From IMG/VR virus record IMGVR_UViG_2526164599_000006: a stretch of 51,662 nucleotides of DNA; one strand, written 5' to 3'. The number at the start of each line of letters is the position of its first letter. The first letter of the stretch is position 1. Source of the stretch: a virus. Its lineage: Duplodnaviria > Heunggongvirae > Uroviricota > Caudoviricetes. The notes below the pieces were generated by a model that saw only the letters and a list, made by a program, of their open reading frames with translations, was not told the DNA's origin and made no database searches. The translations under genes were made by a program, and so were the position numbers. Below, piece after piece: positions 1,132 through 16,220 of the stretch.

Positions 1132-1357
1132 CTTCCAGTATCCTCTTCAAAGCAGGGTGATCTGTGGCGATCACCTCCGGCTTGTTTACCATTCCGACAA
1201 AGCGAGCTTGCGGATCCACTCGCCAGCGTCTTCCAACTTTTTTGGGGAGAGGAAATATCATTCCGGCTTTAGCGTATTTACTTAACGTACTCGGAGTAGG
1301 GACCGGTTCACTGAATTCCTCTTTTGCCCACTCAGTGAGCAGAATAAGTCTTGCCAT
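1109..1357 (-). CDS. xis: excisionase-like small DNA-binding protein
   Basis: 82-aa ORF overlapping int start; basic, winged-helix-like sequence (TLSKYAKAGMIFPLPKKVGRRWRV) typical of Xis/AlpA-type proteins. Confidence 0.7.
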   Translation of the reverse strand: MARLILLTEWAKEEFSEPVPTPSTLSKYAKAGMIFPLPKKVGRRWRVDPQARFVGMVNKPEVIATDHPALKRILEDGAPAKI

Positions 1358-1421
1358 GAGCGTCGTTCGCTAATCATGGTCGCCGCCACTATAGCTGGTG
1401 GGCAACGACCGGGGTTGAACA

Positions 1422-3893
1422 TTAAAAATCAGCCTGATTCGGGATCAGTTTTTGCCAGATAGCTGAAACGTATTTTGCCTGGTAACGGGCATCATCCAGC
1501 GCATTGTGGCGCTCACCTTCGAATGGGATAGCAGTTCTGGCATCGAAGTCTACGGCTTTCCCCAGCTCAACGATTGTGCGTACATCGCGATCGTTGCAGT
1601 AGCGCCACGGGCAGGGGATACCCTGTCGTTCGTATGAACGGCGCAAAATCGTGTTGTCGAAGTTGGCCCCATTACCCCAGACCTGAACAAAAAACTCACC
1701 GGAGTTTTCGTCGATAAATTCCCGCAATTGCAGTAGTGCATCATCTAACGGGATTTCATCGGTCATAATGGCAGACTGCGCTTCACGTGATTGCTTCAGC
1801 CACCATTTAATGACGTCACGATCAATGACTCCGCCAGCAGTATCCAGATCGATGGTCTTGCTAAATTCTGGTCCCATATCTCCGGTTTGCGGATCGAAAA
1901 ATATTGCGCCTATTGAGATAATCGGGGCATCGGGATTTTTTCCCATGGTTTCAAGGTCGATCATTAGATGGTCACACGTCCTGCTGGTGGATGTGATAAC
2001 GTGATGACCGTTCATCGTAATTAAGGGATCTGCCGTCTCGCCAGTTTCACTATCGCTGGCGTGATCCTGAGCGCTACCAGCATTCTCCTTGTGTGGATGT
2101 TCAGCGCCTTCCATTTCCTTCGGATCATTTTCCTGAACTTCAACCTGATTCTCTTCATCGAATGTTTCCTGGTATGTTGCGTCACCCATCACCGCGCCAC
2201 AATCAGGGCAGTTGCCGCCACCGCTTTGACCGCAGGCGGTGCAGACTTTTTCCGGTTCCTGTTGCGCTACTGGCTCAGGTTGTTTCGTTTCTGGCTCGTT
2301 TTGTTGCGTATTTGGGCTGTTTTGTTCCGCTTTCTGGTCGTTCTGTTCCGATTCTTGCTGGTTCTGGTTTACAGAATCGCGGGTTTCAATCCCCTTTACC
2401 CATTTCGGATCATTCGGGTCGCTAATCCCTGCAACAAATTCTCCGCGAGAGGCAGCAAGCAACTTATCGGCGTCAGGCTGGCTGATATTGGCTGCCTGCA
2501 TAATTTTGTTTACTTCGTCAGCGGTAACTTTTACCGGCTCTGGTTGTGCGGTCGTGTCAGATGCACCAGTATTTTGTTGTGAACCTGAGTACGTGCCGTT
2601 TTTACGTGCGAAGTATTCCTCTTTTGTGATTTCCGTAGCTCCCAAGGCTAGTGCTTTTTCCAGACCAGAAAGTTTGTTTGCGCGACCGTATTTTTCGCCA
2701 TCCTTGTCGGTGAAGAGGAAGTAGAACGGCCCCTCACGCTCTACAGATGGTTCGACTTCCACTTTGCATTCGGTTTTTTCGTTGCCCGGAATTGCCGTTT
2801 CCACTGCATCAGTTTCTGGTACTGGCGACGAGAGAGTATCAGTTGCGCTCTGATTTCTTCCTTCATCTTCAAACACGCCCTTTGTAGTCAGGTATTCAGT
2901 AATGTATTTGTTCAGTGCCACAGGGTCTTTGTGAATGTCGATCGGACGTTCACGGACAAGGCCAAAAATAGTCTGGCGGTCGTAGCGAAGGGCATCAGGC
3001 TGTTTGCGCATTGATGCCGAGATACGCTTCCAGTCTTCGCGGTCGTTGTCGATAACTTCATTTTTTGCCCAGCGATGGATGCTGCCGTCAATGTTTCCGG
3101 CATCCACATCACCAGGCCAGAGAGCGTAGGCCAGTTCGTCATCCAGTGTTTTCCATGTCTGCTTGTATTCGCGATGAATGGCAGCAATGACCGGGCTGAT
3201 TTTTCCTGTTGAATTTTCACTGTGCTGTTGATTGGTTCTGGCGCGGGCGAGATCAACAACAGACGTGTATTTTCCGGTTTCCTTGCGTTCACCTTCGCGA
3301 CGTTTTTTCCAGATGCGCATCTCTGCCTGAATTTCGGGCCATTTGGCACCAGGCTTACATTTATGCTTAACCCACCCGATGGCATGCAGCTTAAGCTCCG
3401 GATACATGGCGTTAACTTCTGGCATTTTCATCAACGCTTCAACGATATGTCCGTCGAATGTTGCCATGTCTTCCTGCAACAATTCCTGTGCGCTAATAAC
3501 CATATCAACGGTGATGTTTTCACATGTGTCGAACTTAACCATGACAGCGTTCTGTACTTCAGGGGCCAGCTTGTCAAAAGTGACGTTCATCGGATCGGAT
3601 TCAGTCTCAACCGGGACAAAGGAAGCAGACTCCTCATCCCAGCGGTTTTCCTGCATATATTCAGCATCCCAGGAATCGAGGGCAGGGCGGGGTATACCGG
3701 GTTTATCCTCGCAGACAAGAAATTTATAAGCGCAGTCCTGAGCAGCCGGATAATGCTCCAGGAATTGCCAGTGAAATTTTGCGCGGGCGCGACGTTCATC
3801 ACCGGCTTCAATGGCAGTGGCTACAGCGACGGCACCTTCTTCCTTTATTGCCTGTTCGTCCGGAATGGCGGCGCAAATAAAGACTTTACTCAT
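1422..3893 (-). CDS. putative exonuclease, C-terminal DEDD-type 3'-5' exonuclease domain (class often annotated exodeoxyribonuclease VIII in prophages)
   Basis: 823-aa ORF; C-terminus has DnaQ-like motifs (DLETMG..., FDNTILRR..., HNALDDARY); central low-complexity Q/E/N-rich linker and a CxxC...CxxC zinc-ribbon. Confidence 0.65.
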   Translation of the reverse strand: MSKVFICAAIPDEQAIKEEGAVAVATAIEAGDERRARAKFHWQFLEHYPAAQDCAYKFLVCEDKPGIPRPALDSWDAEYMQENRWDEESASFVPVETESDPMNVTFDKLAPEVQNAVMVKFDTCENITVDMVISAQELLQEDMATFDGHIVEALMKMPEVNAMYPELKLHAIGWVKHKCKPGAKWPEIQAEMRIWKKRREGERKETGKYTSVVDLARARTNQQHSENSTGKISPVIAAIHREYKQTWKTLDDELAYALWPGDVDAGNIDGSIHRWAKNEVIDNDREDWKRISASMRKQPDALRYDRQTIFGLVRERPIDIHKDPVALNKYITEYLTTKGVFEDEGRNQSATDTLSSPVPETDAVETAIPGNEKTECKVEVEPSVEREGPFYFLFTDKDGEKYGRANKLSGLEKALALGATEITKEEYFARKNGTYSGSQQNTGASDTTAQPEPVKVTADEVNKIMQAANISQPDADKLLAASRGEFVAGISDPNDPKWVKGIETRDSVNQNQQESEQNDQKAEQNSPNTQQNEPETKQPEPVAQQEPEKVCTACGQSGGGNCPDCGAVMGDATYQETFDEENQVEVQENDPKEMEGAEHPHKENAGSAQDHASDSETGETADPLITMNGHHVITSTSRTCDHLMIDLETMGKNPDAPIISIGAIFFDPQTGDMGPEFSKTIDLDTAGGVIDRDVIKWWLKQSREAQSAIMTDEIPLDDALLQLREFIDENSGEFFVQVWGNGANFDNTILRRSYERQGIPCPWRYCNDRDVRTIVELGKAVDFDARTAIPFEGERHNALDDARYQAKYVSAIWQKLIPNQADF

Positions 3894-3985
3894 TTTGTTT
3901 TACCTCATTACAGATTTAAGGGTGAACAAATCCCTGCCATTGCTGGCATATAAGAATGAAACCGGATATTTATTACGGAACTGTT

Positions 3986-4231
3986 TTAAAGACCTGCCGG
4001 GATTTCGTTATTATCCTGGTGAATAACTTTATCGACCGGGTAACAGTTACCGGGAATTTTCTGTTCGGTTGCTGCAGTCACACACTCCTGCATTGTCCTG
4101 TGAACACTGACTGCAATATCAACTGGCTCTCCGGAAACAAGAAAAACTGTCAGAACAAGTGCAAATGCTGTATTCATTGCCAGCATCCTTTTTGTATCGG
4201 ACGTAAACGGGCCAGCATTGAAAGAATGCAT
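3986..4231 (-). CDS. hypothetical small protein with N-terminal hydrophobic segment
   Basis: 81-aa ORF; possible internal start at Met16 (MLAMNTAFALVLTVFLVSG, start 4186); no recognisable family. Confidence 0.3.
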   Translation of the reverse strand: MHSFNAGPFTSDTKRMLAMNTAFALVLTVFLVSGEPVDIAVSVHRTMQECVTAATEQKIPGNCYPVDKVIHQDNNEIPAGL

Positions 4232-4467
4232 ATTTTATTTAATAGCTCCCGTTCGTGTTTTCTCTTGTTAATGGCATCTTCAGTAAATACAGGGTTACTG
4301 ATAGTGACACCAATTTCAAAACAACCTTCAGACGTATTAACGTTTGGTAATAACGTTTCCATTATCGCGTCCTCAACAATGAATTTTGTGATGCGGTGCC
4401 TGGTGCCTCCAGGTGACGTTAACCAGTTAACAATTAACGCCGGATACAGAGAATCCACCCATAACAC
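4174..4467 (-). CDS. hypothetical protein
   Basis: 97-aa ORF in early-left operon orientation; no recognisable family. Confidence 0.3.
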   Translation of the reverse strand: MLWVDSLYPALIVNWLTSPGGTRHRITKFIVEDAIMETLLPNVNTSEGCFEIGVTISNPVFTEDAINKRKHERELLNKICILSMLARLRPIQKGCWQ

Positions 4468-4892
4468 TGTTTTTGGTTTTAACTGTTCCGCGTGCGCTCA
4501 GCCGCATTCACCACATCACAAAATTCACTTTAAAAAGGGCGGCAGAGCAGTCACGGAGTAAAACTGATACCGCCAAACGTCACCAGAAAATTGATAACAG
4601 AGGGCGTTGCAGCGGGGTTGTCACTTAAGCGTATGGTCAACCTGACAACCCGGTGTCCTCAACGGGGGAAGGAATAACCCCGCCATACTTACCGCCGCGC
4701 CATTTCGCGGATTGCCACAACCGGAAGCGCACGGTCGACGAAAATTTAACGACAGGCTATCTATGAACCAGCTACCTCGCCGTGCGCTTTCGCGTTATGG
4801 TCTGACTTTTCAGGGAAATATCCTTTCAGTAAACTTGTCAACGCCAAGATTATTGGCCGTTTTTCGCCATTTTTAATGTCCGCTATTGGTCA

Positions 4893-6859
<1,967 letters not shown>

Positions 6860-7057
6860 GAGTGTTCCCTTTGTGGTGTAGGAACCTTAAGGAAACAACA
6901 TGTTGGGTGGAGCGGACAATCCAAATGGTGAATTACTGTCTTATATCATTGGCGCTGACAAACTGTCAGTGCCGGATTCTTATCCGTGTCCGGCGCACGA
7001 CCACACGCTGTCACGAGAGGTCTCCATTCTCAACCAGTAACCTCAATGGAGGATAAA

Positions 7058-7252
7058 ATGTCAGAGCAGGAGTTAAAACTTGGTGCATGTTATTGTGTTC
7101 TCAAGGAGCTGGTACACATGCTTCCATCTACTCAGTATCAACAGTTAGTTGGCAATTTAAATCAGCGAATCGAAGCTATGTTAAAATCTGATGGTTTTAA
7201 TAACGTAGAAACGCTGATGCTAAAAAGATATCTTGATGGATTAATCAGATAA
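7058..7252 (+). CDS. hypothetical small protein
   Basis: 64-aa ORF (MSEQELKLGACYCVLKEL...) with strong RBS GGAGG at 7048..7052; convergent with neighbouring minus-strand gene; adjacent to IS21 end. Confidence 0.4.
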   Translation: MSEQELKLGACYCVLKELVHMLPSTQYQQLVGNLNQRIEAMLKSDGFNNVETLMLKRYLDGLIR

Positions 7253-7591
7253 CATTTTTTTACGGCGTTCATATTCGTTAATATTTATGAAGCCTGTTGC
7301 CAGAAGCAGTTCGTTAATTTCATGGTTGTTTGGCTGTTTCTGGCTCTTTGAGCTGGGATCTTCCACTTCTTTTTCTGCAAATTGTTTTGCTGTATCCTCT
7401 GTGCCATGGATATTTAAAGCTGTATCTGAAAACAGCCCAGTAAACGCATCGCGCACATTACGAGCCATATTATCAGTGTCTTTTTTTGTTACCGATTCCA
7501 ATTCAAGTTCGTTCAGACGATGACGAAGTGTGTGTGCTGCAATCTCCTGGATTGAAGGAGGTAAATCTTTAAATTCCATCGTCAACCTCAT
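7241..7591 (-). CDS. hypothetical early-left protein
   Basis: 116-aa ORF; acidic, no recognisable family. Confidence 0.4.
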   Translation of the reverse strand: MRLTMEFKDLPPSIQEIAAHTLRHRLNELELESVTKKDTDNMARNVRDAFTGLFSDTALNIHGTEDTAKQFAEKEVEDPSSKSQKQPNNHEINELLLATGFININEYERRKKMLSD

Positions 7592-7830
7592 CAGTCAGTG
7601 TTTCTTGCTAACCAGCGATGCGCACCAGCTGCGGTTTTAAACGTTTTACTTTTGGTATACGTCATCGCGGTGAAGGTGCCGTCCTGGTTAGGGAACACAC
7701 CGCATACCAGAGATTCGTTGTTGCCAAGATTGAGCGTATCCATGTTGACCTCATTTCCCCTTAACGCCGGGGTAGCGGAACAAAAAACCTGCTGCGCTGT
7801 TATACAAAGTGTTCCCGCCGTCATGTTCAT
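7591..7830 (-). CDS. hypothetical small protein
   Basis: 79-aa ORF; likely real start at internal Met (MDTLNLGNNES..., about 7743); abuts the downstream gene. Confidence 0.35.
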   Translation of the reverse strand: MNMTAGTLCITAQQVFCSATPALRGNEVNMDTLNLGNNESLVCGVFPNQDGTFTAMTYTKSKTFKTAAGAHRWLARNTD

Positions 7831-7922
7831 ACGCCTCGGGCTGGCTACTTAACCCCTGACCACTGCCGGGTAACTCGAAGTATTTCCCTGCGTTCTGTGG
7901 GGCGGGGTGGGTTGGTATTTTT

Positions 7923-7950
7923 AGTTTAATAAACATTAAACTTAAGTCAA
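7923..7950 (-). promoter_or_regulatory. candidate leftward early promoter/operator (pL-like)
   Basis: Minus-strand TTGACT (7945..7950) and TAAACT (7923..7928) with 16-bp spacer; region is an imperfect inverted copy of the pR-like region at 8937..8966. Confidence 0.3.
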
Positions 7951-8034
7951 GTAAAAACTAAACCGCGGGGCATAACAAACACAACGCTTTTGATAAAGTC
8001 GTTGCGGTTGTTATGTTTCTATTGGTAGTGAAAG

Positions 8035-8313
8035 TTAGGGAAACTGGCGTCTTGCGTGGATCACGTTTACTACTTCAACGCTTGATGTTGTTACGCGGTA
8101 TAGAATTATATAGTTAGGGTGGGCTACAATCTCACGCAAGCCAGGTACTCTGTCGCTTGGTGGGTATAAATACGGATGTTCGGATAACGGCAGCACACAA
8201 CCCCTTAATCGCTGCCATAAGCGTTCAGCCGCATCTATGTCGAAACGAGCAATATAACTAGTTATATCATCTAGGTCGGTATCTGCGCTTTCAAGCCATA
8301 ACACGGGTAACAT
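8035..8313 (-). CDS. parE2: ParE-family toxin (ParE2-like)
   Basis: 92-aa product from internal Met of the 124-aa ORF (MLPVLWLESADTDLDD...HPNYIILYRV...); start overlaps stop of upstream antitoxin with 1-nt spacing. Confidence 0.8.
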   Translation of the reverse strand: MLPVLWLESADTDLDDITSYIARFDIDAAERLWQRLRGCVLPLSEHPYLYPPSDRVPGLREIVAHPNYIILYRVTTSSVEVVNVIHARRQFP

Positions 8314-8314
8314 T

Positions 8315-8506
8315 TTACTGCTTGCTCCGTTCCTTACGCATCTTAGCAAAGCGTTCTGCCATTCTGCGCTCAACTTCGTCATGGGGAATTGCTGGGCGCG
8401 GATCTGCAAGGCTCGTTGCTACTTTCGCACGCAGCCATTCGTTGTAACTGTTTTCTTGTTCAATGGTTTCAAATTCAGAAACCATTGGTGAAAGGGCTCT
8501 ATTCAT
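8315..8506 (-). CDS. paaA2: PaaA2-like antitoxin
   Basis: 63-aa product (MNRALSPMVSEFETIEQENSYNEWLRAK...) immediately upstream of parE-like gene; matches remembered PaaA2 of the E. coli O157:H7 paaR2-paaA2-parE2 system. Confidence 0.7.
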   Translation of the reverse strand: MNRALSPMVSEFETIEQENSYNEWLRAKVATSLADPRPAIPHDEVERRMAERFAKMRKERSKQ

Positions 8507-8526
8507 GTTTCCTCCGGTTTTATAAC

Positions 8527-8805
8527 TCAGGCGCGGCGGCATTTTTGCGCCGCAATCCATCTCGCTATGAGATCTTCCATTGATTCTTTTTTCTGCTTTA
8601 ACTCGCTGATTATCTGGCGTTGCTCATCCTCAGGGAAGGCTGAAAAAATCTGCAATAATTCCAGTTGATTAGACGTTAACCCTGCATGTGGTGGAGAAAC
8701 CCCCGGTTGTTCTGCGTATTCCGCATCCAGATACCCTTCCGGCATCCCGTATGTTTGCTCTATTCTTCTGGCAGCCTTTTCTCCAAACGAGGCTCTCCCA
8801 CTCAT
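8527..8805 (-). CDS. repressor-like regulator (PaaR2/CI-like), N-terminal HTH region apparently out of frame
   Basis: 92-aa ORF from ATG 8805; the same frame continues upstream without a start codon and encodes HTH-like residues (EIRRLRLKEWFKDKTLPPKEKSYLSQL); an ATG at 8897 is in another frame separated by an A7 tract (8887..8893). Confidence 0.5.
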   Translation of the reverse strand: MSGRASFGEKAARRIEQTYGMPEGYLDAEYAEQPGVSPPHAGLTSNQLELLQIFSAFPEDEQRQIISELKQKKESMEDLIARWIAAQKCRRA

Positions 8806-8936
8806 TAGTTGAGATAGGTAGCTCTTCTCTTTGGGTGGCAGAGTTTTATCTTTAAACCACTCCTTGAGACGTAAACGGCGAATTTCTTTTTTTGCATGTG
8901 GTAATTATCTTTAGTAATCACTAAACAAGCAAATAC

Positions 8937-8966
8937 TTGACTTAATGGTTTATTAAACACTAAACT
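8937..8966 (+). promoter_or_regulatory. candidate rightward early promoter/operator (pR-like)
   Basis: TTGACT (8937..8942) and TAAACT (8961..8966); three CACTAAAC repeats at 8919, 8958, 8977; RBS GAGGAAGG before ATG 8995. Confidence 0.35.
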
Positions 8967-8994
8967 CGCAAAAAAACACTAAACCGAGGAAGGT

Positions 8995-9297
8995 ATGACA
9001 TTAAAAGAGTTTATTAAATCATTAAGGGTTGGTGATGCTAAGAAATTCGCGGCCAGACTTGGTGTATCGCCATCTTACTTATCGCAAATGGCGTCTGGAC
9101 GAACAGCTATATCTCCAACCCGCGCCCTTATGATCGAATCTGCGACGGAAGGCCAAGTAAGTAGGGCGGAGCTACGACCCCATGATTGGGAGCTTATTTG
9201 GCCTGAGTATGCGAGCGGCATTCGTTTGGGGCAAACACATGTAGTTCATGCTGAAGGTGATTGTAGTACATGCTTATCTGATGGAGTTGATTCATGA
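8995..9297 (+). CDS. Cro/YdaS-like HTH regulator
   Basis: 100-aa ORF with XRE-type HTH (FAARLGVSPSYLSQMASGRTAIS); first gene of rightward operon, divergent from repressor-like gene. Confidence 0.7.
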   Translation: MTLKEFIKSLRVGDAKKFAARLGVSPSYLSQMASGRTAISPTRALMIESATEGQVSRAELRPHDWELIWPEYASGIRLGQTHVVHAEGDCSTCLSDGVDS

Positions 9298-9719
9298 AAA
9301 TCAAGCATGAACACATCCGCATGGCGATGAATGTCTGGGCGCATCCGGACGGCGAAAAAGTACCGGCTGCGAAAATTACCAAAGCGTATTTCGAGCTGGG
9401 AATGACGTTCCCGGAACTGTATGACGACAGCCATCCGGAAGCCCTGGCCCGTAATACCCAGAAAATTTTCCGTTGGCTGGATAAAGACACCCCTGATGCT
9501 GTTGAAAAAATGCAGGCTCTGTTACCGGCGATCGAAAAGGCGATGCCGCCTTTGCTGGTGGCCCGTATGCGCAGCCACAGTTCTGAATATTACCGTGAGA
9601 TCGTCGAACGGAGGGATCGGCTGGTGAAGGATGTCGATGATTTTGTTGCGTCAGCGGTTGTTTTGTATGACCAGATGAATCGCGGCGGCCCGGCAGGGAA
9701 TGCTGTGGTGATGCACTAA
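9294..9719 (+). CDS. YdaT-like protein (CII-position regulator)
   Basis: 141-aa ORF beginning MKIKHEHI, as remembered for Rac YdaT; overlaps stop of upstream gene. Confidence 0.6.
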   Translation: MKIKHEHIRMAMNVWAHPDGEKVPAAKITKAYFELGMTFPELYDDSHPEALARNTQKIFRWLDKDTPDAVEKMQALLPAIEKAMPPLLVARMRSHSSEYYREIVERRDRLVKDVDDFVASAVVLYDQMNRGGPAGNAVVMH

Positions 9720-9726
9720 AAGCACG

Positions 9727-10704
9727 GTGTTCGGGGGTTTTATGAGCAGCAAGCTTCATGGTCTTGTCTGGGAAGGGTGCGCCTTCACCGGCATGATCTT
9801 ATCCAGGGTGGCGGTTATGGCCCGTCTTGCAGACTACAGCAATGACGAGGGTGTGTCATGGCCTGCCATTGAAACTATCCGGCGTCAGATCGGTGCAAGA
9901 AGTGAATCCACAGTGAAATCGGCTATTGCAGAACTGGCGAAAGAGGGCTGGCTGACGAAGGAAGAGCGTAAGGTCGGTGGGCGTAATGTAAGCAATATCT
10001 ATCGGCTTAATGTGGAAAAACTCGAAGCAGCTGCGGCGGCGGCGCGTGAGTCATATAAACCGAAAAGAAAAATTAGCCCGGCAAAAAATGACCCGTTAAC
10101 AGTTGACCCGTCAAATATTGACCCCTCAACGGTTGACCCGTCAAATTTTGATGGATCAACTGTTGATAAAAAACTGCCGATTAGGGGGGCGATGATTGAC
10201 CCCGATCCGTCAGTATTAAAACCTGATCCGTCAGATAAAAGATCTTCTTGTCCGGACGCTTCGCAACCGGACCCGCAGACGGCTGAACAGGATTTTTTAA
10301 CCCGACACCCTGACGCGGTTGTGTTCAGTGCGAAAAAACGCCAGTGGGGAAGTCAGGAAGATTTGGTGTGCGCACAGTGGATCTGGGGACGAATCGTGAG
10401 TCTTTACGAGCAGGCGGCCAGCTATGATGGCGAGATCACTAGACCGAAAGAACCCAACTGGACAGCATGGGCCAATGACGTTCGCACAATGCGGATGCTG
10501 GATGGCAGAACTCACAGACAAATTTGTGAAATGTTTGGGCGTCTCCAGCGGGATTCGTTCTGGGTAAAAAACATCATGAGTCCGGCAAAACTCCGGGAAA
10601 AATGGGATGAACTGGTTATCCGCCTGGGGCGTTCGCCTGCGCAGCGTTGCGTGAATCACATTTCTGAACCGGACACTGAAATTCCGCCGGGCTTCAGGGG
10701 GTAA
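9727..10704 (+). CDS. putative replication initiation protein (O-like position), iterons embedded in coding sequence
   Basis: 325-aa ORF (track start GTG 9727; ATG at 9742 is an alternative); N-terminal winged-helix-like region, peptide repeats DPLTV/DPSNI/DPSTV/DPSNF encoded by 15-bp iterons. Confidence 0.65.
   Translation: MFGGFMSSKLHGLVWEGCAFTGMILSRVAVMARLADYSNDEGVSWPAIETIRRQIGARSESTVKSAIAELAKEGWLTKEERKVGGRNVSNIYRLNVEKLEAAAAAARESYKPKRKISPAKNDPLTVDPSNIDPSTVDPSNFDGSTVDKKLPIRGAMIDPDPSVLKPDPSDKRSSCPDASQPDPQTAEQDFLTRHPDAVVFSAKKRQWGSQEDLVCAQWIWGRIVSLYEQAASYDGEITRPKEPNWTAWANDVRTMRMLDGRTHRQICEMFGRLQRDSFWVKNIMSPAKLREKWDELVIRLGRSPAQRCVNHISEPDTEIPPGFRG
10089..10178. repeat. candidate replication origin iterons (six 15-bp-spaced TGACCCGTCAAnnnn-like repeats)
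   Basis: Direct repeats starting at 10089, 10104, 10119, 10134, 10149, 10164; followed by paired GATCCGTCAG motifs at 10204 and 10225. Confidence 0.5.
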
Positions 10705-10744
10705 GTGTTAATTTCTGGTCATGAGGTAATTTTCAGGAGGGCTT

Positions 10745-11167
10745 GTGGCAAAAGTTTTTACACAAGAAGAGCGGGAAAAAATTAAAGGGCTGATCGTGGA
10801 ATTCGTACGCCTTAACGGACGAGGCACGATTCGGCAGTTATCGGATGAAATTGGTGTCAGTCATGCGTCTGTCGGTCGTTTATGCATGGAGCTGGCCGCC
10901 AGTGGTGATGTTTACAATTCCGGTTACGGAGTATTCCCGTCTGAGCAGGCGCGCAAGGACTGGCAAAACGCCCGCAAAAAACTCTCAAGGGCAAAGCTGA
11001 AGAAACCATCTGTGGTTGATCCGGACCTTATCTGGCTATTACCAGACGGCGAAATACGCCGCTACGACAGGCGTCAGAACATAATCTGTCGCGAGTGCCG
11101 GAAGAGCGAAGTTATGCAGCGCATATTGTCGTTTTATCAGGGTAATTTTCAGGAGGTAGCGCAGTGA
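10745..11167 (+). CDS. hypothetical protein with HTH-like segment
   Basis: 140-aa ORF, GTG start preceded by GGAGGG; RQLSDEIGVSHASVGRL resembles an HTH. Confidence 0.45.
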   Translation: MAKVFTQEEREKIKGLIVEFVRLNGRGTIRQLSDEIGVSHASVGRLCMELAASGDVYNSGYGVFPSEQARKDWQNARKKLSRAKLKKPSVVDPDLIWLLPDGEIRRYDRRQNIICRECRKSEVMQRILSFYQGNFQEVAQ

Positions 11168-11658
11168 GTGCACCGGCAACCATTCTTGATATGTGCTGTG
11201 GCAGCCGCATGTTCTGGTTCGATAAGAATGACGACCGGGCGATATTTAGCGATATCAGAAAGGAAGAGCACACATTATGTGATGGACGAAGACTGATAAT
11301 TAGCCCTGACCTGATAGCAGATTTTCGTGCATTACCATTTGCAGACGCATCGTTTCCGGTGGTTGTATTCGACCCTCCGCATCTTGAGCGTGTTGGTGAT
11401 AACGCCTGGATGGGAAAGAAATATGGACGGCTGAATAAAGATACCTGGCGTGATGATTTGCGGCAGGGATTTAAAGAAGCCTTTCGTGTGTTGCGGCCAT
11501 ACAGCGTTCTGATTTTTAAATGGAATGAAACGCAAATACCTGTTCGCCAGATATTGGCACTGACCGACAGAAAGCCTGTTATCGGTCAACGAACAGGAAA
11601 GGGTGACAAGACCCACTGGATTATTTTTATGAAGGAGGCGACCAGTGAGCAAGATTGA
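11164..11658 (+). CDS. small phage Dam-like DNA N6-adenine methyltransferase (putative)
   Basis: 164-aa ORF with glycine-rich motif (DMCCGSRMFWFD) and DPPH variant of the DPPY catalytic motif (VVVFDPPHLERV). Confidence 0.5.
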   Translation: MSAPATILDMCCGSRMFWFDKNDDRAIFSDIRKEEHTLCDGRRLIISPDLIADFRALPFADASFPVVVFDPPHLERVGDNAWMGKKYGRLNKDTWRDDLRQGFKEAFRVLRPYSVLIFKWNETQIPVRQILALTDRKPVIGQRTGKGDKTHWIIFMKEATSEQD

Positions 11659-11827
11659 CTATCAAGAACTGCGCGAGGCGGCGGAACAGGCAACGCAAGA
11701 TGAATGGGTAGCATATATTTTGCCGGGTCATAACGCATTTATCCTGCGCGCACGTCTGAGGGTAGGCATTGCGGATACTTTATTGACTGGCCTGGCGTCT
11801 GTCAGGGGCGGGAGAGCATCAACATGA
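11645..11827 (+). CDS. hypothetical small protein
   Basis: 60-aa ORF; N-terminus MSKIDYQELREAAEQA is paralogous to N-termini of ORFs at 12327 and 13752. Confidence 0.35.
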   Translation: MSKIDYQELREAAEQATQDEWVAYILPGHNAFILRARLRVGIADTLLTGLASVRGGRAST

Positions 11828-12330
11828 GCATCAGAACCTACGCAGTGAATTGCAATGACGCATGGCTAAACACCGAAGGTGATGACATCTCCGGCTCATA
11901 CGTTAAGTACAAAGACCATCAGGAAGTGGTTGCCGCTCTTGAGGCCAAGTGCGCGGCGCTGACAGCGGAGAATGCGGGAATAAAGTCTGCAATTCCAGAA
12001 TCACGGGATATTGAGGATGACAATGACAATATGGATGACGTATCTCTCGCGGAAGACTTCGGGTTCAATCATGCAATAGAACGGATGAGGAGACAGATAC
12101 CTGAAACGCCAACCACTGATGCTTTCCTGGCTGAAGTCCGGGCGCAGGGGGTGGATGCTGCTATAGAAGCTGCAAAAAATCTGGTGGCCCAAGAATATGA
12201 GTATAAGGATTTCAAAGCGGCGCAGAGTGATTGCTGTATGCACCCTGGTTCAGACCTGGTAGGGAAGGTTGAAATGACTGAGTGGTTAGTTGACTTTGCT
12301 GCCCAGCTTCGCAAAGGAGGCAACCAGTGA
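11824..12330 (+). CDS. hypothetical early-region protein
   Basis: 168-aa ORF translationally coupled to neighbours; no recognisable family. Confidence 0.45.
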   Translation: MSIRTYAVNCNDAWLNTEGDDISGSYVKYKDHQEVVAALEAKCAALTAENAGIKSAIPESRDIEDDNDNMDDVSLAEDFGFNHAIERMRRQIPETPTTDAFLAEVRAQGVDAAIEAAKNLVAQEYEYKDFKAAQSDCCMHPGSDLVGKVEMTEWLVDFAAQLRKGGNQ

Positions 12331-12974
12331 GCGAAATTAATTACCAGTCACTGCGTGAGGTGGCGGAACGTGCAATTCCAGCAATGGAACGCCTGTTAAT
12401 GTTGCCAGCTGATGATGATTTGTTAAGTGAACAGGAACTTAAAGATTACGGTGTGGATATTGATGCGCTCAATGCCTTCAAATTTCTGACCGGACCAGAA
12501 ACCGTGCTGGCACTACTGGACGAACGGGAAAGAAACCAGCAATACATCAAACGCCGCGACCAGGAGAACGAGGATATTGCACTAACGGTTGGGAAACTGC
12601 GTGTTGAGCTGGAAGCCGCAGAGAAGCGCAACGCAAAATTACAAAGCGAGAATGCATACATCCGCAACCGGTTCAAAGAGCTGGACCTGTTAATCGGGAA
12701 AAACATTCTGGTCATGCAGGCTGCGATTATCGAATGGCAGGCAACTGGCGACGCTAAAAGCGGACTGGCATGGATTTATAACACACTGTTTGGCCTAGGC
12801 GAATTGCCGGACGAATCTGAGAAAGATGCTCAGGCCTACTTTAATCGCAAATATGCACCGATTGACGAAAAGCTCATGGAGCTTCACAAGTGGTTTTGGG
12901 AACAAAGTGAAGCCGAGCGCGCCGCTGGCATTCGCATCAAAGGAGAGGAGCATGGAAATAAAACCAGAGGATGA
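12327..12974 (+). CDS. hypothetical coiled-coil protein (Ea22-like class)
   Basis: 215-aa ORF; N-terminus MSEINYQSLREVAERA; central heptad-rich region. Confidence 0.45.
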   Translation: MSEINYQSLREVAERAIPAMERLLMLPADDDLLSEQELKDYGVDIDALNAFKFLTGPETVLALLDERERNQQYIKRRDQENEDIALTVGKLRVELEAAEKRNAKLQSENAYIRNRFKELDLLIGKNILVMQAAIIEWQATGDAKSGLAWIYNTLFGLGELPDESEKDAQAYFNRKYAPIDEKLMELHKWFWEQSEAERAAGIRIKGEEHGNKTRG

Positions 12975-13308
12975 GTTAAGCAATATCGTTTTATTTCCGG
13001 TAAAAGAGGATGACCCTCGTAATCAGGTTAATTTTCTTTATGAGCCATCGGAAAGACCATATTGCCATCACGCCTCTGTTCGGGTTGACGAAAAAGAGCG
13101 TCAGGTCCGCTGTAAAATCTGCGGTGCAGTTGTGGAGCCGTTTGACTGGATGCTCTCTGTGGCGAAAAGAGAAACCAGACTGGCAGATGATGTAAGGCTA
13201 TTGCGCCAGGAGGAACAGGAAAGGCGGAAAAATATAGAAAAGTTAATTCAGATTGAGCGTAACGCAAAAGCGCGGATATGCAGGGCGACAAAATCCAGAA
13301 CTGAATAA
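12952..13308 (+). CDS. hypothetical protein with CxxC...CxxC zinc-ribbon
   Basis: 118-aa product from internal Met (MEIKPEDEL...) of 160-aa ORF; cysteine pairs CHH...CKIC. Confidence 0.4.
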   Translation: MEIKPEDELSNIVLFPVKEDDPRNQVNFLYEPSERPYCHHASVRVDEKERQVRCKICGAVVEPFDWMLSVAKRETRLADDVRLLRQEEQERRKNIEKLIQIERNAKARICRATKSRTE

Positions 13309-13403
13309 TTAAATTTAGCACTGTAAATAAAATCAAATCCTTAACCGGAGGGATTTCTGCACCCTCAGAACATCAGGAGGCCGTCCGAAAGGGCGGTAGT
13401 GAA

Positions 13404-13586
13404 ATGCGAAAATTCAAAATAATTATTGAAACGGGAATAGCCGGTGGAGATTTCGAGGATGAATTCGAAGTGGATGATGATGCAACACCAGATGAAATAC
13501 AGGATGAAGCTAAAGATATTTTCTTTAACTACTGCAATTACTCATACCACGAAATAAAAGACGAAGAGGAAGAACAAAATGGCTGA
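13404..13586 (+). CDS. hypothetical acidic small protein
   Basis: 60-aa ORF rich in D/E. Confidence 0.3.
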   Translation: MRKFKIIIETGIAGGDFEDEFEVDDDATPDEIQDEAKDIFFNYCNYSYHEIKDEEEEQNG

Positions 13587-13755
13587 TTTTGGTTCAACTA
13601 AATATAACGCCAGTTTTGAAGAATGGCATGAACTGTTAATGGATTATGCAGAGTTACGCGGTGGAAGTGCCGCTGATGCTGAAGCATGGCGTGATGATTA
13701 TGAAGCAGGGAAAACACCGGTCGAAGCATATTGTGATGAGTGGGGCGATGAATGA
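13579..13755 (+). CDS. hypothetical small protein
   Basis: 58-aa ORF (MADFGSTKYNASFEEWHELL...) below the track cut-off; ATGA overlap with the next gene. Confidence 0.3.
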   Translation: MADFGSTKYNASFEEWHELLMDYAELRGGSAADAEAWRDDYEAGKTPVEAYCDEWGDE

Positions 13756-14111
13756 GCGAGATTAATTATCAGGAAGGGCATGAAAAGGCAGGGCAGGCAA
13801 AACCAGTGGCATGGCGATATCGCTACGTGAAAAAAGGCGTTACAGACTTTCAGGGGAAGCAGTGGGTTGGTGACTGGAAATATGTCCCGACAAAAGAGGA
13901 TTGCAACGACAGACCGAACTATGAAATTCAGGCGTTATTCACTGCCCCGCCTGTGCCACTGACACCAGAAGGATTGATTAAAGCAGTGCGTTTCTATGAA
14001 CAGGTAAAGCGTGAGAATCCGCCAGTCGAAACCGGAGCATGGAAAGACGCTGTTGACTGGGTGCTCAAAGAGGCTTGCCAGTCTGTAAACATTGGCATCA
14101 AAGGAGAGTGA
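13752..14111 (+). CDS. hypothetical protein
   Basis: 119-aa ORF; N-terminus MSEINYQ paralogous to ORF at 12327. Confidence 0.4.
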   Translation: MSEINYQEGHEKAGQAKPVAWRYRYVKKGVTDFQGKQWVGDWKYVPTKEDCNDRPNYEIQALFTAPPVPLTPEGLIKAVRFYEQVKRENPPVETGAWKDAVDWVLKEACQSVNIGIKGE

Positions 14112-14112
14112 T

Positions 14113-14376
14113 ATGGCAACTTTGACAAAAAAAGAACAAGCATGGTTGAGCGAATTACAGGACGTTCTTGATCGCTGTCCATCACCGAAAAAAATTGGTT
14201 TTTACACCATTGGCGATAAAAGCATTTACCTGTATGACCTGCGCCGCATGGATGAAATCATGGAGGCTCTTGATAATCGTTCGTCGATGGATTGGTGTGT
14301 TGCTGTTCATGATATGAATGCAGGGTTTGATGAAAAGATTTTGTTCCCCTCATCAGTTGAAAGCACTGCGGGTTAA
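14113..14376 (+). CDS. hypothetical protein
   Basis: 87-aa product from internal Met (MATLTKKEQ...) of the 94-aa ORF. Confidence 0.4.
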   Translation: MATLTKKEQAWLSELQDVLDRCPSPKKIGFYTIGDKSIYLYDLRRMDEIMEALDNRSSMDWCVAVHDMNAGFDEKILFPSSVESTAG

Positions 14377-14386
14377 GGAGTAACAC

Positions 14387-14554
14387 ATGACCACTATTAC
14401 CAAAGAACGTATTGAATTGTTCATTAAAAATCCGGTTGAAAACGGGCTTACCCGTGGTGAACAAATGGAACTGGCACGGATTGCGCTGGCATCGCTGGAA
14501 GCAGAGCCGGTTGTGTTCTGGTTTGAAAAATATCAAGAAGGGGCTACGGCATGA
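14387..14554 (+). CDS. hypothetical small protein
   Basis: 55-aa ORF ([12 protein letters not shown]...SLEAEP) resembling the N-terminus of the next ORF; ATGA overlap downstream. Confidence 0.3.
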
Positions 14555-14895
14555 CGACTTTTACCAGAGAGCAGTTAATAGCTCACGCAGAGGAGACTAT
14601 TGAAGCACAGAGACTGTGCATACCGGGCACAATCGACCATGACATCATCCGCACATATAAGATGGATATTGCTGTTCTGGAAATCGCACTGGTATCGCTG
14701 GCAGCAGAGCCAGCCGGTAAATTGCATGAATACAAACCAGTGGGATATCAGCGTCTGGTCGATGAGTTAACCATGCTGGTAAAGCAGTTAACCTGGCAAC
14801 TGAGGAAAGCGAAGCCAGACTGCAAATTACCGGATAAGGCGATGAGTTATCTGGAGCGGAACGGACTGATAAGCGTGGAGGATATTTTACGATGA
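14551..14895 (+). CDS. hypothetical protein
   Basis: 114-aa ORF. Confidence 0.4.
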
Positions 14896-15186
14896 CCTGG
14901 CCTGAAGCATTAACAACGGTAGGAATTGCGATGGCGGTGGCGCTGGTGGTGTATTCGATTTGCCGCTGGGGATAAAAACGGTTTGCGGTAAAGCGAGAGT
15001 TAAGTAGAATTGCTGCGGGTGCTTGAGGCTATCTGCCTCAGGCATGAACACCAAAAGGCAGATAGAGAAAAGCCCCAGTTAACATTACGCGTCCTGCAAG
15101 ACGCTTAACATTAATCTGAGGCCCAATCTATGTCTCACAAATGTAGGTTAGCCTCTTACGTGCCGAAAGGCAAGGAGAAGCAGGCT

Positions 15187-15342
15187 ATGAAGCAGCAAAA
15201 GGCGATGCTAATCGCCCTGATCGTCATCTGTTTAACCGTCATGGTGACGGCACTGGTAACGAGGAAAGACCTCTGCGAGGTACGAATCCGAACCGGCCAG
15301 ACGGAGGTCGCTGTCTTCACAGCTTACGAACCTGAGGAGTAA
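15187..15342 (+). CDS. hokD: Hok/Gef-family small membrane toxin (HokD/RelF-like)
   Basis: 51-aa product MKQQKAMLIALIVICLTVMVTALVTRKDLCEVRIRTGQTEVAVFTAYEPEE; RBS AAGGAG 8 nt upstream; in-frame upstream extension from ATG 15130. Confidence 0.8.
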   Translation: MKQQKAMLIALIVICLTVMVTALVTRKDLCEVRIRTGQTEVAVFTAYEPEE

Positions 15343-15410
15343 GAGACCCGGCGGGGGAGAAATCCCTCGCCACCGCTGATGTGTCAGGCATCCTCAACGC
15401 ACCCGCACTT

Positions 15411-15436
15411 AACCCGCTTCGGCGGGTTTTGTTTTT
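15411..15436 (+). terminator. rho-independent terminator after hok
   Basis: Hairpin ACCCGC-TTCG-GCGGGT followed by TTTTGTTTTT. Confidence 0.5.
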
Positions 15437-15508
15437 CCTGGCATTCTGGTTTACAATTCGCACACCAGCCTGAACAACTGGCACCTGCTGCGCCAGCAGA
15501 GACAACCG

Positions 15509-15787
15509 ATGGCGCACGATACCAAATTACACAATTCTGATAATTCAGCCGTCTTTGCCAGCAGGCGCGGACGGTGTTTTCACGCATTCAAATCTGACTG
15601 GTACCAGCATCCCCCATGCACTGAAGAACAGGCCGAATGGCTCATTCAGTGTTACCGCAGGCGCGGATACGAGGTTAAAAAAGCCCTTAACCTCGACTAC
15701 CGTCACTGGATAATCTCCGTCAGGCTTCCTTACTCTGAACGCCCACCGCGTCCGTCCCGCACATTCCAGCAACGCATCTGGAGGTAA
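15509..15787 (+). CDS. hypothetical protein
   Basis: 92-aa ORF. Confidence 0.35.
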   Translation: MAHDTKLHNSDNSAVFASRRGRCFHAFKSDWYQHPPCTEEQAEWLIQCYRRRGYEVKKALNLDYRHWIISVRLPYSERPPRPSRTFQQRIWR

Positions 15788-15788
15788 C

Positions 15789-16181
15789 GTGCGGGTATTA
15801 CTTCGACCTGTTCTGGTACCGGAACTCGGGCTGGTGATCGTTAAGCCGGGCCGTGAATCCATGCCGGTATTCCACAATACCCGGGTACTGGTGGAGCCGG
15901 AACCGAAAAGCATGCGTAATCTGCCGTCCGGGGTCGTTCCTGCCGTTCGCCAGCCGCTGGCGGAGGATAAATCATTACTGCCATTTTTCAGCGACGAACG
16001 AGTGATTCGTGCTGCTGGTGGCGCTGGCGCATTGTCTGACTGGTTACTGCGCCATGTTAAATCCTGCCAGTGGCCACACGGCGATTATCACCACAGTGAA
16101 ACCGTCATTCACCGTTATGGTACCGGCGCAATGGTGTTGTGCTGGCACTGCGACAACCAGTTGCGTGACCAGACCTCCTAA
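15789..16181 (+). CDS. hypothetical protein with Cys/His cluster
   Basis: 130-aa ORF; CQWPHGDYHH...CWHCDN. Confidence 0.35.
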   Translation: MRVLLRPVLVPELGLVIVKPGRESMPVFHNTRVLVEPEPKSMRNLPSGVVPAVRQPLAEDKSLLPFFSDERVIRAAGGAGALSDWLLRHVKSCQWPHGDYHHSETVIHRYGTGAMVLCWHCDNQLRDQTS

Positions 16182-16220
16182 TCACTTGAGCAACTTGCTC
16201 ACCAAAACCTGTCAGCATGG

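What the first reader, a model, noticed from the sequence alone, without database searches (positions are those of the whole stretch)
7923..8966. Repressor-antitoxin-toxin operon (PaaR2/PaaA2/ParE2-like) filling the prophage immunity region
The divergently transcribed unit opposite the cro-like gene encodes a repressor-like protein followed by a PaaA2-like antitoxin (8315..8506) and a ParE-family toxin (8035..8313), with 1-nt spacing between antitoxin stop and toxin start. The region is flanked by mirrored promoter-like elements (minus-strand TTGACT/TAAACT at 7923..7950; plus-strand TTGACT/TAAACT at 8937..8966) and inverted 11-mers (7924..7934 GTTTAATAAAC versus 8948..8958 GTTTATTAAAC). This places the TA pair where lambda carries rexAB, suggesting coupling of lysogeny maintenance to addiction or abortive-infection functions. 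The paaR2-paaA2-parE2 system is described from E. coli O157:H7; the name assignment here is from memory.
Basis: partly seen in the sequence, partly recalled or inferred. Interest (0 to 1): 0.55.

Follow-up and report, generated by a model that had tools for sequence, protein, structure and literature searches.

The report
Known PaaR2-PaaA2-ParE2 prophage immunity module
This is the already published PaaR2-PaaA2-ParE2 toxin-antitoxin operon that sits in the immunity region of an E. coli lambda-like prophage; the only departure is a one-base deletion that breaks the repressor gene as sequenced, and that is probably a sequencing error.

Summary
ParE2 (8035..8313, minus strand) and PaaA2 (8315..8506, minus strand) are 100% identical to the solved E. 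coli O157:H7 proteins. YdaS and YdaT (Cro-like and CII-like) match the solved CP-933P proteins. The 97-bp paaR2-ydaS intergenic region is identical to an O157:H7 genome. That paper already shows PaaR2 acting like CI, YdaS like Cro and YdaT like CII, a leaderless paaR2 mRNA, operators at both ends of the operon, bistable expression, and addiction. The A8 run at codons 2-4 is A7 (T7 at 8887..8893), so no intact 123-aa repressor is encoded. A7 occurs in 3 of 593 complete E. coli genomes carrying this stretch. Seven of the eight contigs shown carrying the resulting 118-aa product are 2012-era drafts. One of them is 100% identical to window 3527..13883. Two of the others show further homopolymer length differences. 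I judge the deletion about 70% likely to be an artefact. If real, the switch would be locked in the ydaST-on state. No evidence supports an abortive-infection role. Novelty: already known. Interest: low.

The parts
7923..7950 (-). PL933P-type leftward promoter (TTGACT, 16 nt, TAAACT)
   Evidence: Found by the consensus scan. It lies inside the PL933P-gfp fragment of Jurenas 2021, whose primers map to 7917..8033. PaaR2 and YdaS repressed that fragment about 100-fold.
7917..7975 (.). OL-type operator region
   Evidence: It is similar to the OR region in both orientations, beyond every shuffle and every random genomic 59-mer tested. GTTTATTAA lies at 7926..7934(-). The paper describes OL1-OL3 here.
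7971..8015 (-). Strong hairpin between the parE2 stop and PL; candidate end-of-operon terminator (no U tract directly after the stem)
   Evidence: Inverted repeat I3, 21-nt arms. RNA fold -21.3 kcal/mol, z = -4.58. The terminator function is inferred.
8035..8313 (-). parE2, ParE-family toxin, 92 aa
   Evidence: 100% identical to PDB 5CW7_B. Pfam ParE_toxin, E = 1.9e-16.
8315..8506 (-). paaA2, antitoxin without a DNA-binding domain, 63 aa
   Evidence: Residues 2-63 are identical to PDB 3ZBE_A. Pfam PaaA2, E = 1e-19.
8527..8897 (-). paaR2, CI-like repressor gene, frameshifted as sequenced (371 nt instead of 372)
   Evidence: The two frames are shown. The 1-nt deletion is the only difference from L001 across 1451 nt. 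The frame-corrected product matches PDB 7NKV. The published EDL933 primer carries A8.
8887..8893 (-). A7 run (T7 on the + strand) at codons 2-4 of paaR2; the reference allele is A8
8898..8994 (.). 97-bp OR region holding PRM (leftward) and PR (rightward), with three CACTAAAC repeats and GTTTAGTAA-type palindromes
   Evidence: No differences from O157:H7 strain PV15-279. The length equals the published 97 bp, and PaaR2 and YdaS footprint it.
8937..8966 (+). PR933P-type rightward promoter (TTGACT, 18 nt, TAAACT)
   Evidence: Found by the consensus scan. It lies inside the PR933P fragment at 8898..8971. In the paper, 5' RACE start sites fitted the predicted promoters.
8903..8932 (-). PRM-type promoter as I assign it (TTGCTT, 18 nt, GATAAT); the +1 would be the A of the ATG at 8897 (leaderless mRNA)
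   Evidence: The hexamers are my own reading. The leaderless start and the MQKKE N-terminus were shown for the CP-933P sequence.
8995..9297 (+). ydaS, Cro-like regulator, 100 aa
   Evidence: Matches PDB 8C7K, 'Phage antirepressor protein Cro', E = 5.5e-63. Pfam YdaS_toxin and HTH_3.
9294..9719 (+). ydaT, CII-like activator, 141 aa
   Evidence: Matches PDB 8BT1, E = 7.4e-93. Pfam YdaT_toxin. PHROG 'CII-like transcriptional activator'.
9287..9304 (.). YdaT operator TTGATT-N6-AATCAA, within the PRE933P fragment (9204..9323, leftward)
   Evidence: The only match in the window. The motif is from PMC9986795. The PRE primers map here.

Best explanation
Region 7917..9719 is the immunity region of a lambda-like E. 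coli prophage and carries the published paaR2-paaA2-parE2 ('RAE2') module of CP-933P/Sp12.

How it works, taken from experiments on an essentially identical sequence:
- paaR2 is transcribed leftward from PRM as a leaderless mRNA, together with paaA2 and parE2.
- PaaR2 acts like CI. It binds repeated operators in the 97-bp OR region and at OL beyond parE2, and it represses PR and PL.
- YdaS acts like Cro. It competes for the same operators, which makes expression bistable.
- YdaT acts like CII. It binds TTGATT-N6-AATCAA and activates a leftward PRE promoter.
- PaaA2 has no DNA-binding domain and neutralises the ParE2 toxin. Loss of the locus frees ParE2, which gives addiction (post-segregational killing).
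- The TA pair sits where lambda has rexA-rexB.

The prophage in this window looks full length. It carries this cassette where a close relative carries a LexA-type cI and cro.

As sequenced, paaR2 has a 1-nt deletion (A8 to A7) at codons 2-4. I consider this most likely (about 70%) a homopolymer under-call in a 2012-era draft assembly, in which case the module is simply wild type.
For: Shown here:
- ParE2 and PaaA2 are 100% identical to the solved O157:H7 proteins and both pass Pfam.
- Frame-corrected PaaR2 matches 7NKV. YdaT matches 8BT1 and YdaS matches 8C7K.
- Across 7900..9720 the window differs from an O157:H7 genome at 5 substitutions and 1 indel, with none in OR. It differs from ATCC 25922-like genomes only by the single T.
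- The published primers map the PL, PR/PRM and PRE fragments onto the window. The YdaT site is unique in the window.
- OL/OR similarity exceeds every control.

From the literature: regulation, the leaderless start, footprints, bistability and addiction.

Mosaic context: the H71 prophage shares the backbone but has a LexA-family repressor and Cro at this position. Phage Evi carries the module.

For the artefact reading of the deletion:
- A7 occurs in only 3 of 593 complete genomes carrying this stretch.
- It is absent from GTDB species representatives and from JGI metagenomes.
- 7 of the 8 contigs shown with the 118-aa product are 2012-era drafts, in at least six haplotypes. One of them (AIHI01000010.1) is 100% identical to window 3527..13883.
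- Sister drafts show further homopolymer length differences from an O157:H7 genome: A5 to A4 in L008; T8 to T7 and C5 to C6 in L013.
- A null repressor would not be expected to persist in a prophage whose int/xis, Q and late genes look intact. This last point is inference.
Against: - Nineteen of the 20 long homopolymer runs in the window have the same length as in relatives where a relative could be matched, or could not be compared at all (two runs). Only the paaR2 run differs, so this assembly shows no general homopolymer problem.
- The prophage has two lesions that do not look like homopolymer errors: an IS21-family insertion with a 4-bp target duplication, and a GAA-to-TAA nonsense codon in DUF968. 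Some decay has therefore happened, and a real paaR2 mutation is plausible.
- A7 also appears in three 2023 complete genomes and in a 2023 run assembly.
- I could not confirm the sequencing technology of the source assembly.
- No experiment was done on this particular strain.
Confidence: 0.9

Rival explanations
1. The A7 frameshift is real, so this prophage has lost PaaR2. The 5'-terminal AUG would be translated into a 30-aa peptide (MQKKKFAVYV...) ending at 8805..8807. At most an N-terminally truncated protein without the first HTH helices could follow, by re-initiation at the overlapping TAATG (8803..8807) or from the ATT at 8881..8883 that PGAP chose as start codon. By analogy with the published paaR2 stop mutant, the switch would be locked in the ydaST-on state. 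paaA2-parE2 would still be transcribed at a low level from PRM and PRE, so addiction would persist. PL and PR would be restrained only by YdaS.
For: - The frames are shown. PGAP annotates a 118-aa ATT-start product in ETEC1732.
- The paaR2 stop mutant lost the RAE2-on subpopulation, while RAE2 transcription stayed detectable in both states.
- The same deletion occurs in a different haplotype, ETEC1732 (3 differences in paaR2 and 76 in ydaT relative to the window), so it has arisen more than once.
- No other homopolymer discordance is seen in the window.
- The prophage has other lesions.
- The IS21-family insertion at 4836..6960 separates PL from DicF and dicB. That could make a derepressed PL tolerable; this point is inference.
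Against: - The allele is strongly enriched in 2012 draft assemblies from two accession series, and these drafts show other homopolymer miscalls.
- It is rare in complete genomes.
- The rightward operon (replication, Q, lysis, and a late region collinear with other prophages) has no obvious lesion. Loss of the repressor should then be lethal or lead to loss of the prophage.
Confidence: 0.25
2. The A run is a functional contingency or recoding site. Slippage during replication (A7/A8/A9) would switch the repressor off and on heritably. Alternatively, a -1 ribosomal slip on the in-frame A_AAA_AAG of the A7 allele would regenerate wild-type PaaR2 (MQKKEIRR...) at a low level.
For: - In the A7 allele the zero frame reads CA-A_AAA_AAG. 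A -1 slip gives exactly the wild-type sequence (my reading).
- A_AAA_AAG is among the most efficient motifs in E. coli when stimulatory elements are present.
- A7, A8 and A9 alleles are all on record.
- A7 is seen in several haplotypes.
Against: - Without stimulatory elements, motifs gave only 2.1 to 10 times a 0.055% background, which is at most about 0.5% frameshifting.
- There is no significant downstream RNA structure (z = -0.77) and no upstream sequence at all, because the mRNA is leaderless.
- The tract is not conserved. Phage Evi encodes the same residues with CAG, which breaks the run.
- The length variants track sequencing projects.
Confidence: 0.04
3. The TA pair acts mainly as a Rex-like phage-exclusion (abortive-infection) module of the lysogen, rather than as an addiction module.
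For: It occupies the rexA-rexB position and is co-transcribed with the repressor. Prophage TA systems are known to act as defence elements; this is general knowledge and was not tested here.
Against: - No PADLOC model matches any of the three proteins.
- The published data show plasmid stabilisation by post-segregational killing, and no ParE2 activation in either transcriptional state.
- The authors propose that the module stabilises the immunity region.
Confidence: 0.1

Closest known systems
paaR2-paaA2-parE2 (RAE2) with ydaS-ydaT in cryptic prophage CP-933P / Sp12 of E. coli O157:H7 (Hallez et al. 2010, as cited; Jurenas et al. 2021, PMC8630535)
   Same: - Same genes in the same order and with the same spacing.
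- ParE2 and PaaA2 are identical to the solved proteins.
- The OR region is identical to that of an O157:H7 genome.
- PL/OL, PRE and the YdaT site are all present.
   Different: - paaR2 has A7 instead of A8 as sequenced.
- Two substitutions lie in the OL-side region.
- The host prophage looks full length, about 50 kb with a lambda-type late region, rather than the IS-disrupted CP-933P.
Lambda immunity region: PL/OL - rexB - rexA - cI - PRM/OR/PR - cro - cII
   Same: - Same layout, with a repressor operon carrying two passenger genes between OL and OR.
- Leaderless repressor mRNA.
- Cro-like and CII-like partners, and a PRE-type promoter.
   Different: - PaaR2 has 123 aa and no S24 peptidase domain, so no RecA-driven self-cleavage is expected.
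- The operators differ: four 18-bp palindromes plus direct repeats.
- The passengers are a ParE-type TA pair, not RexAB.
Sister prophages with the same backbone but a LexA-family CI and Cro (for example NZ_CM136155.1, hit H71)
   Same: int, xis, exonuclease, dicB, DUF1391, ydaT, the O-like gene, Q, the methyltransferase and the lysis genes are collinear at 95-97% identity.
   Different: The immunity cassette is swapped. A 717-nt LexA-family repressor and a 216-nt cro stand in place of paaR2-paaA2-parE2 and ydaS.
Escherichia phage Evi (LR597642.1)
   Same: It carries the whole module at 95.5% identity, with an intact 372-nt paaR2.
   Different: It is deposited as a phage genome. Its Gln codon is CAG, which breaks the A run. 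parE2 is not annotated there.
racR-ydaS-ydaT of prophage Rac and dicA-dicC-dicB of prophage Qin (E. coli K-12)
   Same: A non-cleavable repressor faces a Cro-like gene, with a leftward operon that contains DicF and dicB.
   Different: The paper reports only 26% and 31% identity to Rac YdaS and YdaT. I recall no TA pair downstream of those repressors; that is my own knowledge and was not tested here.

Membership tests
PaaR2-PaaA2-ParE2 three-component toxin-antitoxin system | ParE-family toxin of about 92 aa | tested here: met
   Pfam ParE_toxin, 60.9 bits against a cut-off of 23. 92 of 92 residues identical to PDB 5CW7_B.
PaaR2-PaaA2-ParE2 three-component toxin-antitoxin system | PaaA2-type antitoxin, 63 aa, with no DNA-binding domain | tested here: met
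   Pfam PaaA2, 70.7 bits against a cut-off of 27, and no HTH or RHH family hit. Residues 2-63 identical to PDB 3ZBE_A.
PaaR2-PaaA2-ParE2 three-component toxin-antitoxin system | A third, upstream, co-oriented gene encoding the PaaR2 regulator | tested here: inconclusive
   The gene is present at 8527..8897 but carries a 1-nt deletion, so no 123-aa ORF exists as sequenced. The frame-corrected product matches the PaaR2 N-terminal domain in 7NKV. The deletion is probably an artefact.
PaaR2-PaaA2-ParE2 three-component toxin-antitoxin system | Operon order R-A-E with tight spacing | tested here: met
   20 nt separate the paaR2 stop from the paaA2 start, and 1 nt separates the paaA2 stop from the parE2 start. 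All three genes are on the minus strand.
PaaR2-PaaA2-ParE2 three-component toxin-antitoxin system | ParE2 toxicity, neutralisation by PaaA2, and post-segregational killing | not testable with these tools
   Reported for the CP-933P system, whose solved toxin and antitoxin are identical to those here (citing Hallez 2010).
Lambdoid immunity region (CI/Cro/CII switch with OL and OR) | Divergent repressor and cro-like genes sharing a short operator region with repeated sites | tested here: met
   A 97-bp intergenic region with no differences from an O157:H7 genome. Three clustered CACTAAAC repeats and GTTTAGTAA-type palindromes. Footprints are reported.
Lambdoid immunity region (CI/Cro/CII switch with OL and OR) | A second operator and promoter set (OL/PL) on the far side of the repressor operon | tested here: met
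   7917..7975 is similar to OR beyond all controls. The same -35 and -10 hexamers as at PR are present. It corresponds to the PL933P fragment.
Lambdoid immunity region (CI/Cro/CII switch with OL and OR) | CII-like activator with its site at a leftward PRE promoter | tested here: met
   YdaT matches PDB 8BT1. TTGATT-N6-AATCAA is unique, at 9287..9304. It lies inside the PRE933P fragment. Activation is taken from the literature.
Lambdoid immunity region (CI/Cro/CII switch with OL and OR) | Repressor with a RecA-stimulated S24 self-cleavage domain | tested here: not met
   The 123-aa product has no Pfam family at all, so no Peptidase_S24. The paper states that the motif is absent. The switch therefore works like lambda's but is not induced the lambda way.
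Rex-type or other catalogued anti-phage defence system | Sequence match to a known or candidate defence protein model | tested here: not met
   PADLOC-DB 2.0 gives no hit for ParE2, PaaA2 or PaaR2 at E <= 0.01.
Rex-type or other catalogued anti-phage defence system | Exclusion of superinfecting phages | not testable with these tools
   Not reported in PMC8630535 or in the abstract of PMC9986795.

The most novel reading that the evidence does not exclude
The A8 run at codons 2-4 of the leaderless paaR2 gene could be a hypermutable switch. Slippage to A7 or A9 would turn the prophage repressor off heritably and reversibly, adding a genetic layer to the known epigenetic bistability. The A7 allele would stay slightly leaky, because a -1 ribosomal slip on its in-frame A_AAA_AAG regenerates exactly the wild-type protein. 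A7 alleles in several haplotypes and one A9 allele are on record. Their distribution looks technology-linked.
Probability: 0.04. Interest if true: 0.5.

Novelty: already known. Interest (0 to 1): 0.12.

Why it matters
The finding adds little. It is a correct re-identification of a well-characterised system for which structures of PaaA2-ParE2, YdaS, YdaT and the PaaR2 N-terminal domain are available. It also re-derives the published idea that a TA pair rides in the rexAB slot of a lambdoid immunity region.

Three points have some practical value:
- The module here sits in a prophage that looks full length, and it alternates with a LexA-type cI/cro cassette on the same backbone. That fits the published proposal that the TA pair protects an immunity cassette against replacement.
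- The A8 run at the start of paaR2 is a recurrent site of length miscalls or mutations. It produces spurious 92-aa and 118-aa 'hypothetical proteins' in databases.
- If the A7 allele were real in this strain, it would be a natural repressor-null version of the published stop-codon mutant.

Tried and rejected
- Pfam on PaaR2, broken or frame-corrected, gave nothing. Identification came from the PDB sequence search and PHROGs.
- Exact-pattern scans for the T7 allele found nothing in GTDB species representatives or in JGI metagenomes.
- The sequencing technology of the source assembly could not be established. Full-text searches for its accession and for the DEC genome paper failed, and the DOI is not held.
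- Table S1 and Figs 1B and S2 of the mBio paper, which give the exact hexamers and operators, are not held as text. I mapped the promoters through the primer table instead.
- A -1 frameshift stimulator downstream of the A run was rejected: the fold has z = -0.77.
- I first suspected an IS in the tail region (the 443-aa minus-strand ORF at 34868..36199). That was rejected. It has no Pfam hit, the region is collinear with other prophages, and the major tail gene on the plus strand is intact.
- Pervasive homopolymer error in this window was not found.
- Two early scripts failed because a locus file had not yet been written.
Full report
OBSERVATION. All coordinates in the finding are correct. On the minus strand, a 63-aa ORF (8315..8506) is followed after one base by a 92-aa ORF (8035..8313); the junction reads TAA-A-ATG. 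TTGACT-16 nt-TAAACT lies at 7950..7923 on the minus strand and TTGACT-18 nt-TAAACT at 8937..8966 on the plus strand. The consensus scan returned both, although the scan as a whole is not above expectation (5 sites against 2.8 +/- 1.7). The 11-mers GTTTAATAAAC (7924..7934) and GTTTATTAAAC (8948..8958) are present. They belong to longer repeats: 24-nt arms at 79% complementarity, and a perfect 12-mer TTAAGTCAAGTA / TACTTGACTTAA.

A local alignment of 7917..7975 against 8898..8994 scores 30 in inverted orientation and 37 in direct orientation. None of 2000 shuffles and none of 2929 random 59-mers from the window reached either score. The relation is therefore real. It is both direct and inverted because the core motif GTTTA(A/T)TAAAC is itself nearly palindromic. 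CACTAAAC occurs only three times in 51.6 kb, all within 66 bp (8919..8984).

IDENTITY. The toxin is 92/92 identical to chain B of PDB 5CW7 (ParE2) and passes Pfam ParE_toxin. The antitoxin is identical over residues 2-63 to PDB 3ZBE (PaaA2) and passes Pfam PaaA2. On the plus strand, the 100-aa product (8995..9297) matches PDB 8C7K, 'Phage antirepressor protein Cro'. The 141-aa product (9294..9719) matches PDB 8BT1, YdaT of CP-933P. Across 7900..9720 the window differs from an O157:H7 genome at 5 substitutions and 1 indel, with none in the 97-bp intergenic region. It differs from ATCC 25922-type genomes by a single base. The module is common: 592 of 5426 complete E. coli genomes hold at least 80% of 7850..9300.

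WHAT IS ALREADY KNOWN. Jurenas et al. 2021 (PMC8630535) studied this locus in CP-933P. They report the following:
- PaaR2 is a CI analogue, translated from a leaderless mRNA. The N-terminus MQKKE was confirmed by protein sequencing.
- PaaR2 and YdaS footprint the 97-bp intergenic region, which holds PRM933P and PR933P.
- A further promoter, PL933P, has the same -35 and -10 elements as PR933P and three operators. It lies beyond parE2 and is repressed about 100-fold by either regulator.
- YdaT activates a PRE promoter between ydaS and ydaT.
- The locus is bistable and addictive.

Their primer table maps onto the window. The PL933P fragment is 7917..8033 (leftward), the PR/PRM fragment is 8898..8971, and the PRE fragment is 9204..9323. 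The YdaT recognition sequence TTGATT-N6-AATCAA (PMC9986795) occurs once in the window, at 9287..9304. The paper also makes the comparison with lambda cI-rexA-rexB.

paaR2 is not an intact ORF here. The ATG at 8897 is followed by A7 (T7 at 8887..8893 on the plus strand). That frame reads MQKKKFAVYV... and stops at 8805..8807. The rest of PaaR2 lies in another frame, as the 92-aa ORF 8527..8805. Adding one A gives the 123-aa protein, whose first 66 residues are identical to the PaaR2 N-terminal domain in PDB 7NKV. The EDL933 primer reads ATGC-A8-G. In a 1451-nt alignment this deletion is the only difference from L001.

IS THE FRAMESHIFT REAL?

Evidence that it is an artefact:
- Among 593 complete genomes carrying this stretch, only three have T7: ETEC1732, ETEC1734 and ETEC1749, all pig isolates with adjacent accession numbers.
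- The T7 pattern is absent from GTDB species representatives and from JGI metagenomes.
- The intact 123-aa protein is on at least 999 contigs. The 92-aa and 118-aa products of the broken gene are on 24 and 9 contigs.
- Of the eight places shown for the 118-aa product, seven are 2012-era NCBI drafts (AIHI, AIFU, AIGI, AKBC, AKAW, AJVV, AJVX). They represent at least six haplotypes, 97.3-100% identical to the window.
- One of them, AIHI01000010.1 (GCA_000250375.2), is 100% identical to window 3527..13883 and is presumably the source.
- Sister drafts show further homopolymer length differences from an O157:H7 genome: A5 to A4 in L008; T8 to T7 and C5 to C6 in L013.
- The rest of the prophage looks able to grow lytically. 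int, xis, the exonuclease, the O-like gene, Q, the lysis genes and a lambda-type late region collinear with other genomes at 99.2% identity are all present. A repressor-null allele should not persist in such a prophage; this is inference.

Evidence that it is real:
- Only the paaR2 run differs among the 20 long homopolymer runs in the window. Seventeen of the other 19 could be compared with relatives and all of those agree, including a T8 run.
- The prophage has two lesions that do not look like homopolymer errors. One is an IS21-family element at 4836..6960 with the target duplication AACT. The other is a GAA-to-TAA stop in DUF968 at 16179..16181.
- A7 also appears in 2023 assemblies, and one run assembly has A9.

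I could not establish the sequencing technology. My estimate is about 70% artefact.

IF THE FRAMESHIFT IS REAL. The published paaR2 stop mutant lost the RAE2-on subpopulation, while RAE2 transcription stayed detectable. The prediction is therefore a switch locked in the ydaST-on state, with the TA pair still expressed. A -1 ribosomal slip on the in-frame A_AAA_AAG would regenerate exactly MQKKEIRR.... Motifs without stimulatory elements, however, give only 2.1 to 10 times a 0.055% background (PMC4066793). The downstream RNA shows no significant structure (z = -0.77). Phage Evi uses CAG, which breaks the run. A designed recoding or phase-variation site is therefore unlikely.

CONTEXT. The window is a prophage of about 50 kb. 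A near-identical backbone in NZ_CM136155.1 carries a LexA-family repressor and cro where this one has paaR2-paaA2-parE2 and ydaS. The module thus behaves as an exchangeable immunity cassette, in line with the authors' proposal that the TA pair guards the cassette. One deposited phage, Evi, carries the module. PaaR2 has no peptidase domain, so induction cannot follow the lambda route. No PADLOC model matches the three proteins, so the abortive-infection suggestion stays unsupported.

VERDICT. The one extra feature, the paaR2 frameshift, is probably a sequencing artefact. Interest is low.

Noticed in passing
window 8887..8893: paaR2 carries A7 instead of A8 at codons 2-4, which breaks the repressor reading frame. 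The same contraction is seen in several haplotypes, mostly in 2012-era draft assemblies. One run assembly (ERR13317903, L021) has A9.
   Followed up: yes
window 4836..6960: An IS21-family element (istA 5687..6859, istB 4893..5690, both on the minus strand) with terminal inverted repeats TGTCAACGCCAA / TGTCAGCGCCAA and a 4-bp target duplication AACT. It is inserted in the leftward PL operon, between the 116-aa ORF (7241..7591) and DicF/dicB. It would be expected to cut PL transcription off from DicF, dicB, the exonuclease, xis and int.
   Followed up: partly
window 16179..16181: In-frame TAA in the DUF968 gene (15789..16838) where two relatives have GAA. This is a nonsense substitution, so the prophage shows some real decay.
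   Followed up: partly
window 7241..9297 compared with L006 (NZ_CM136155.1) 6826..8235: A prophage with the same backbone carries a LexA-family repressor and a Cro in place of paaR2-paaA2-parE2 and ydaS. This is a mosaic swap of the immunity cassette, with ydaT retained on both.
   Followed up: partly
window 9006..9026: A further operator-like copy (AGAGTTTATTAAATCATTAAG, containing GTTTATTAA) lies inside the first codons of ydaS. It forms a 21-nt, 86% inverted repeat with 8941..8961 at the PR -35/-10 region. I did not see it described as an operator in the text I read.
   Followed up: no
window 7971..8015: A strong hairpin (21-nt arms; -21.3 kcal/mol for the 90-nt fold; z = -4.6) lies between the parE2 stop and PL. 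It looks like an end-of-operon terminator but has no U tract directly after the stem.
   Followed up: partly
window 4537..4588 (-), 15017..15192 (+), 19717..19789 and 19893..19966 (+), 20666..20855 (+), 49403..49601 (+): Rfam matches: DicF RNA; sok antisense RNA (a 70-aa ORF, probably Hok, lies at 15130..15342); two tRNAs upstream of the lysis region; sRNA STnc100; and 'IS009' inside the tail-fibre assembly gene.
   Followed up: no
window 51105..51662 (-): A Rha-family regulatory protein gene lies at the far right end, and its ATG is the last base of the window. PaaR2 lacks a self-cleavage domain, so an antirepressor encoded far from the immunity region could be the inducer. Its upstream region lies outside the window.
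   Followed up: no
window 3527..13883: 100% identical to NCBI draft contig AIHI01000010.1 (GCA_000250375.2), which is presumably the source of the window. No complete RefSeq E. coli genome covers 80% or more of window 1..25000.
   Followed up: yes
L003 (NZ_CP122823.1) 8672..9028: In ETEC1732, PGAP annotates the frameshifted paaR2 as a 118-aa 'hypothetical protein' that starts at an ATT codon, not as a pseudogene. This hides the frameshift in protein databases.
   Followed up: partly
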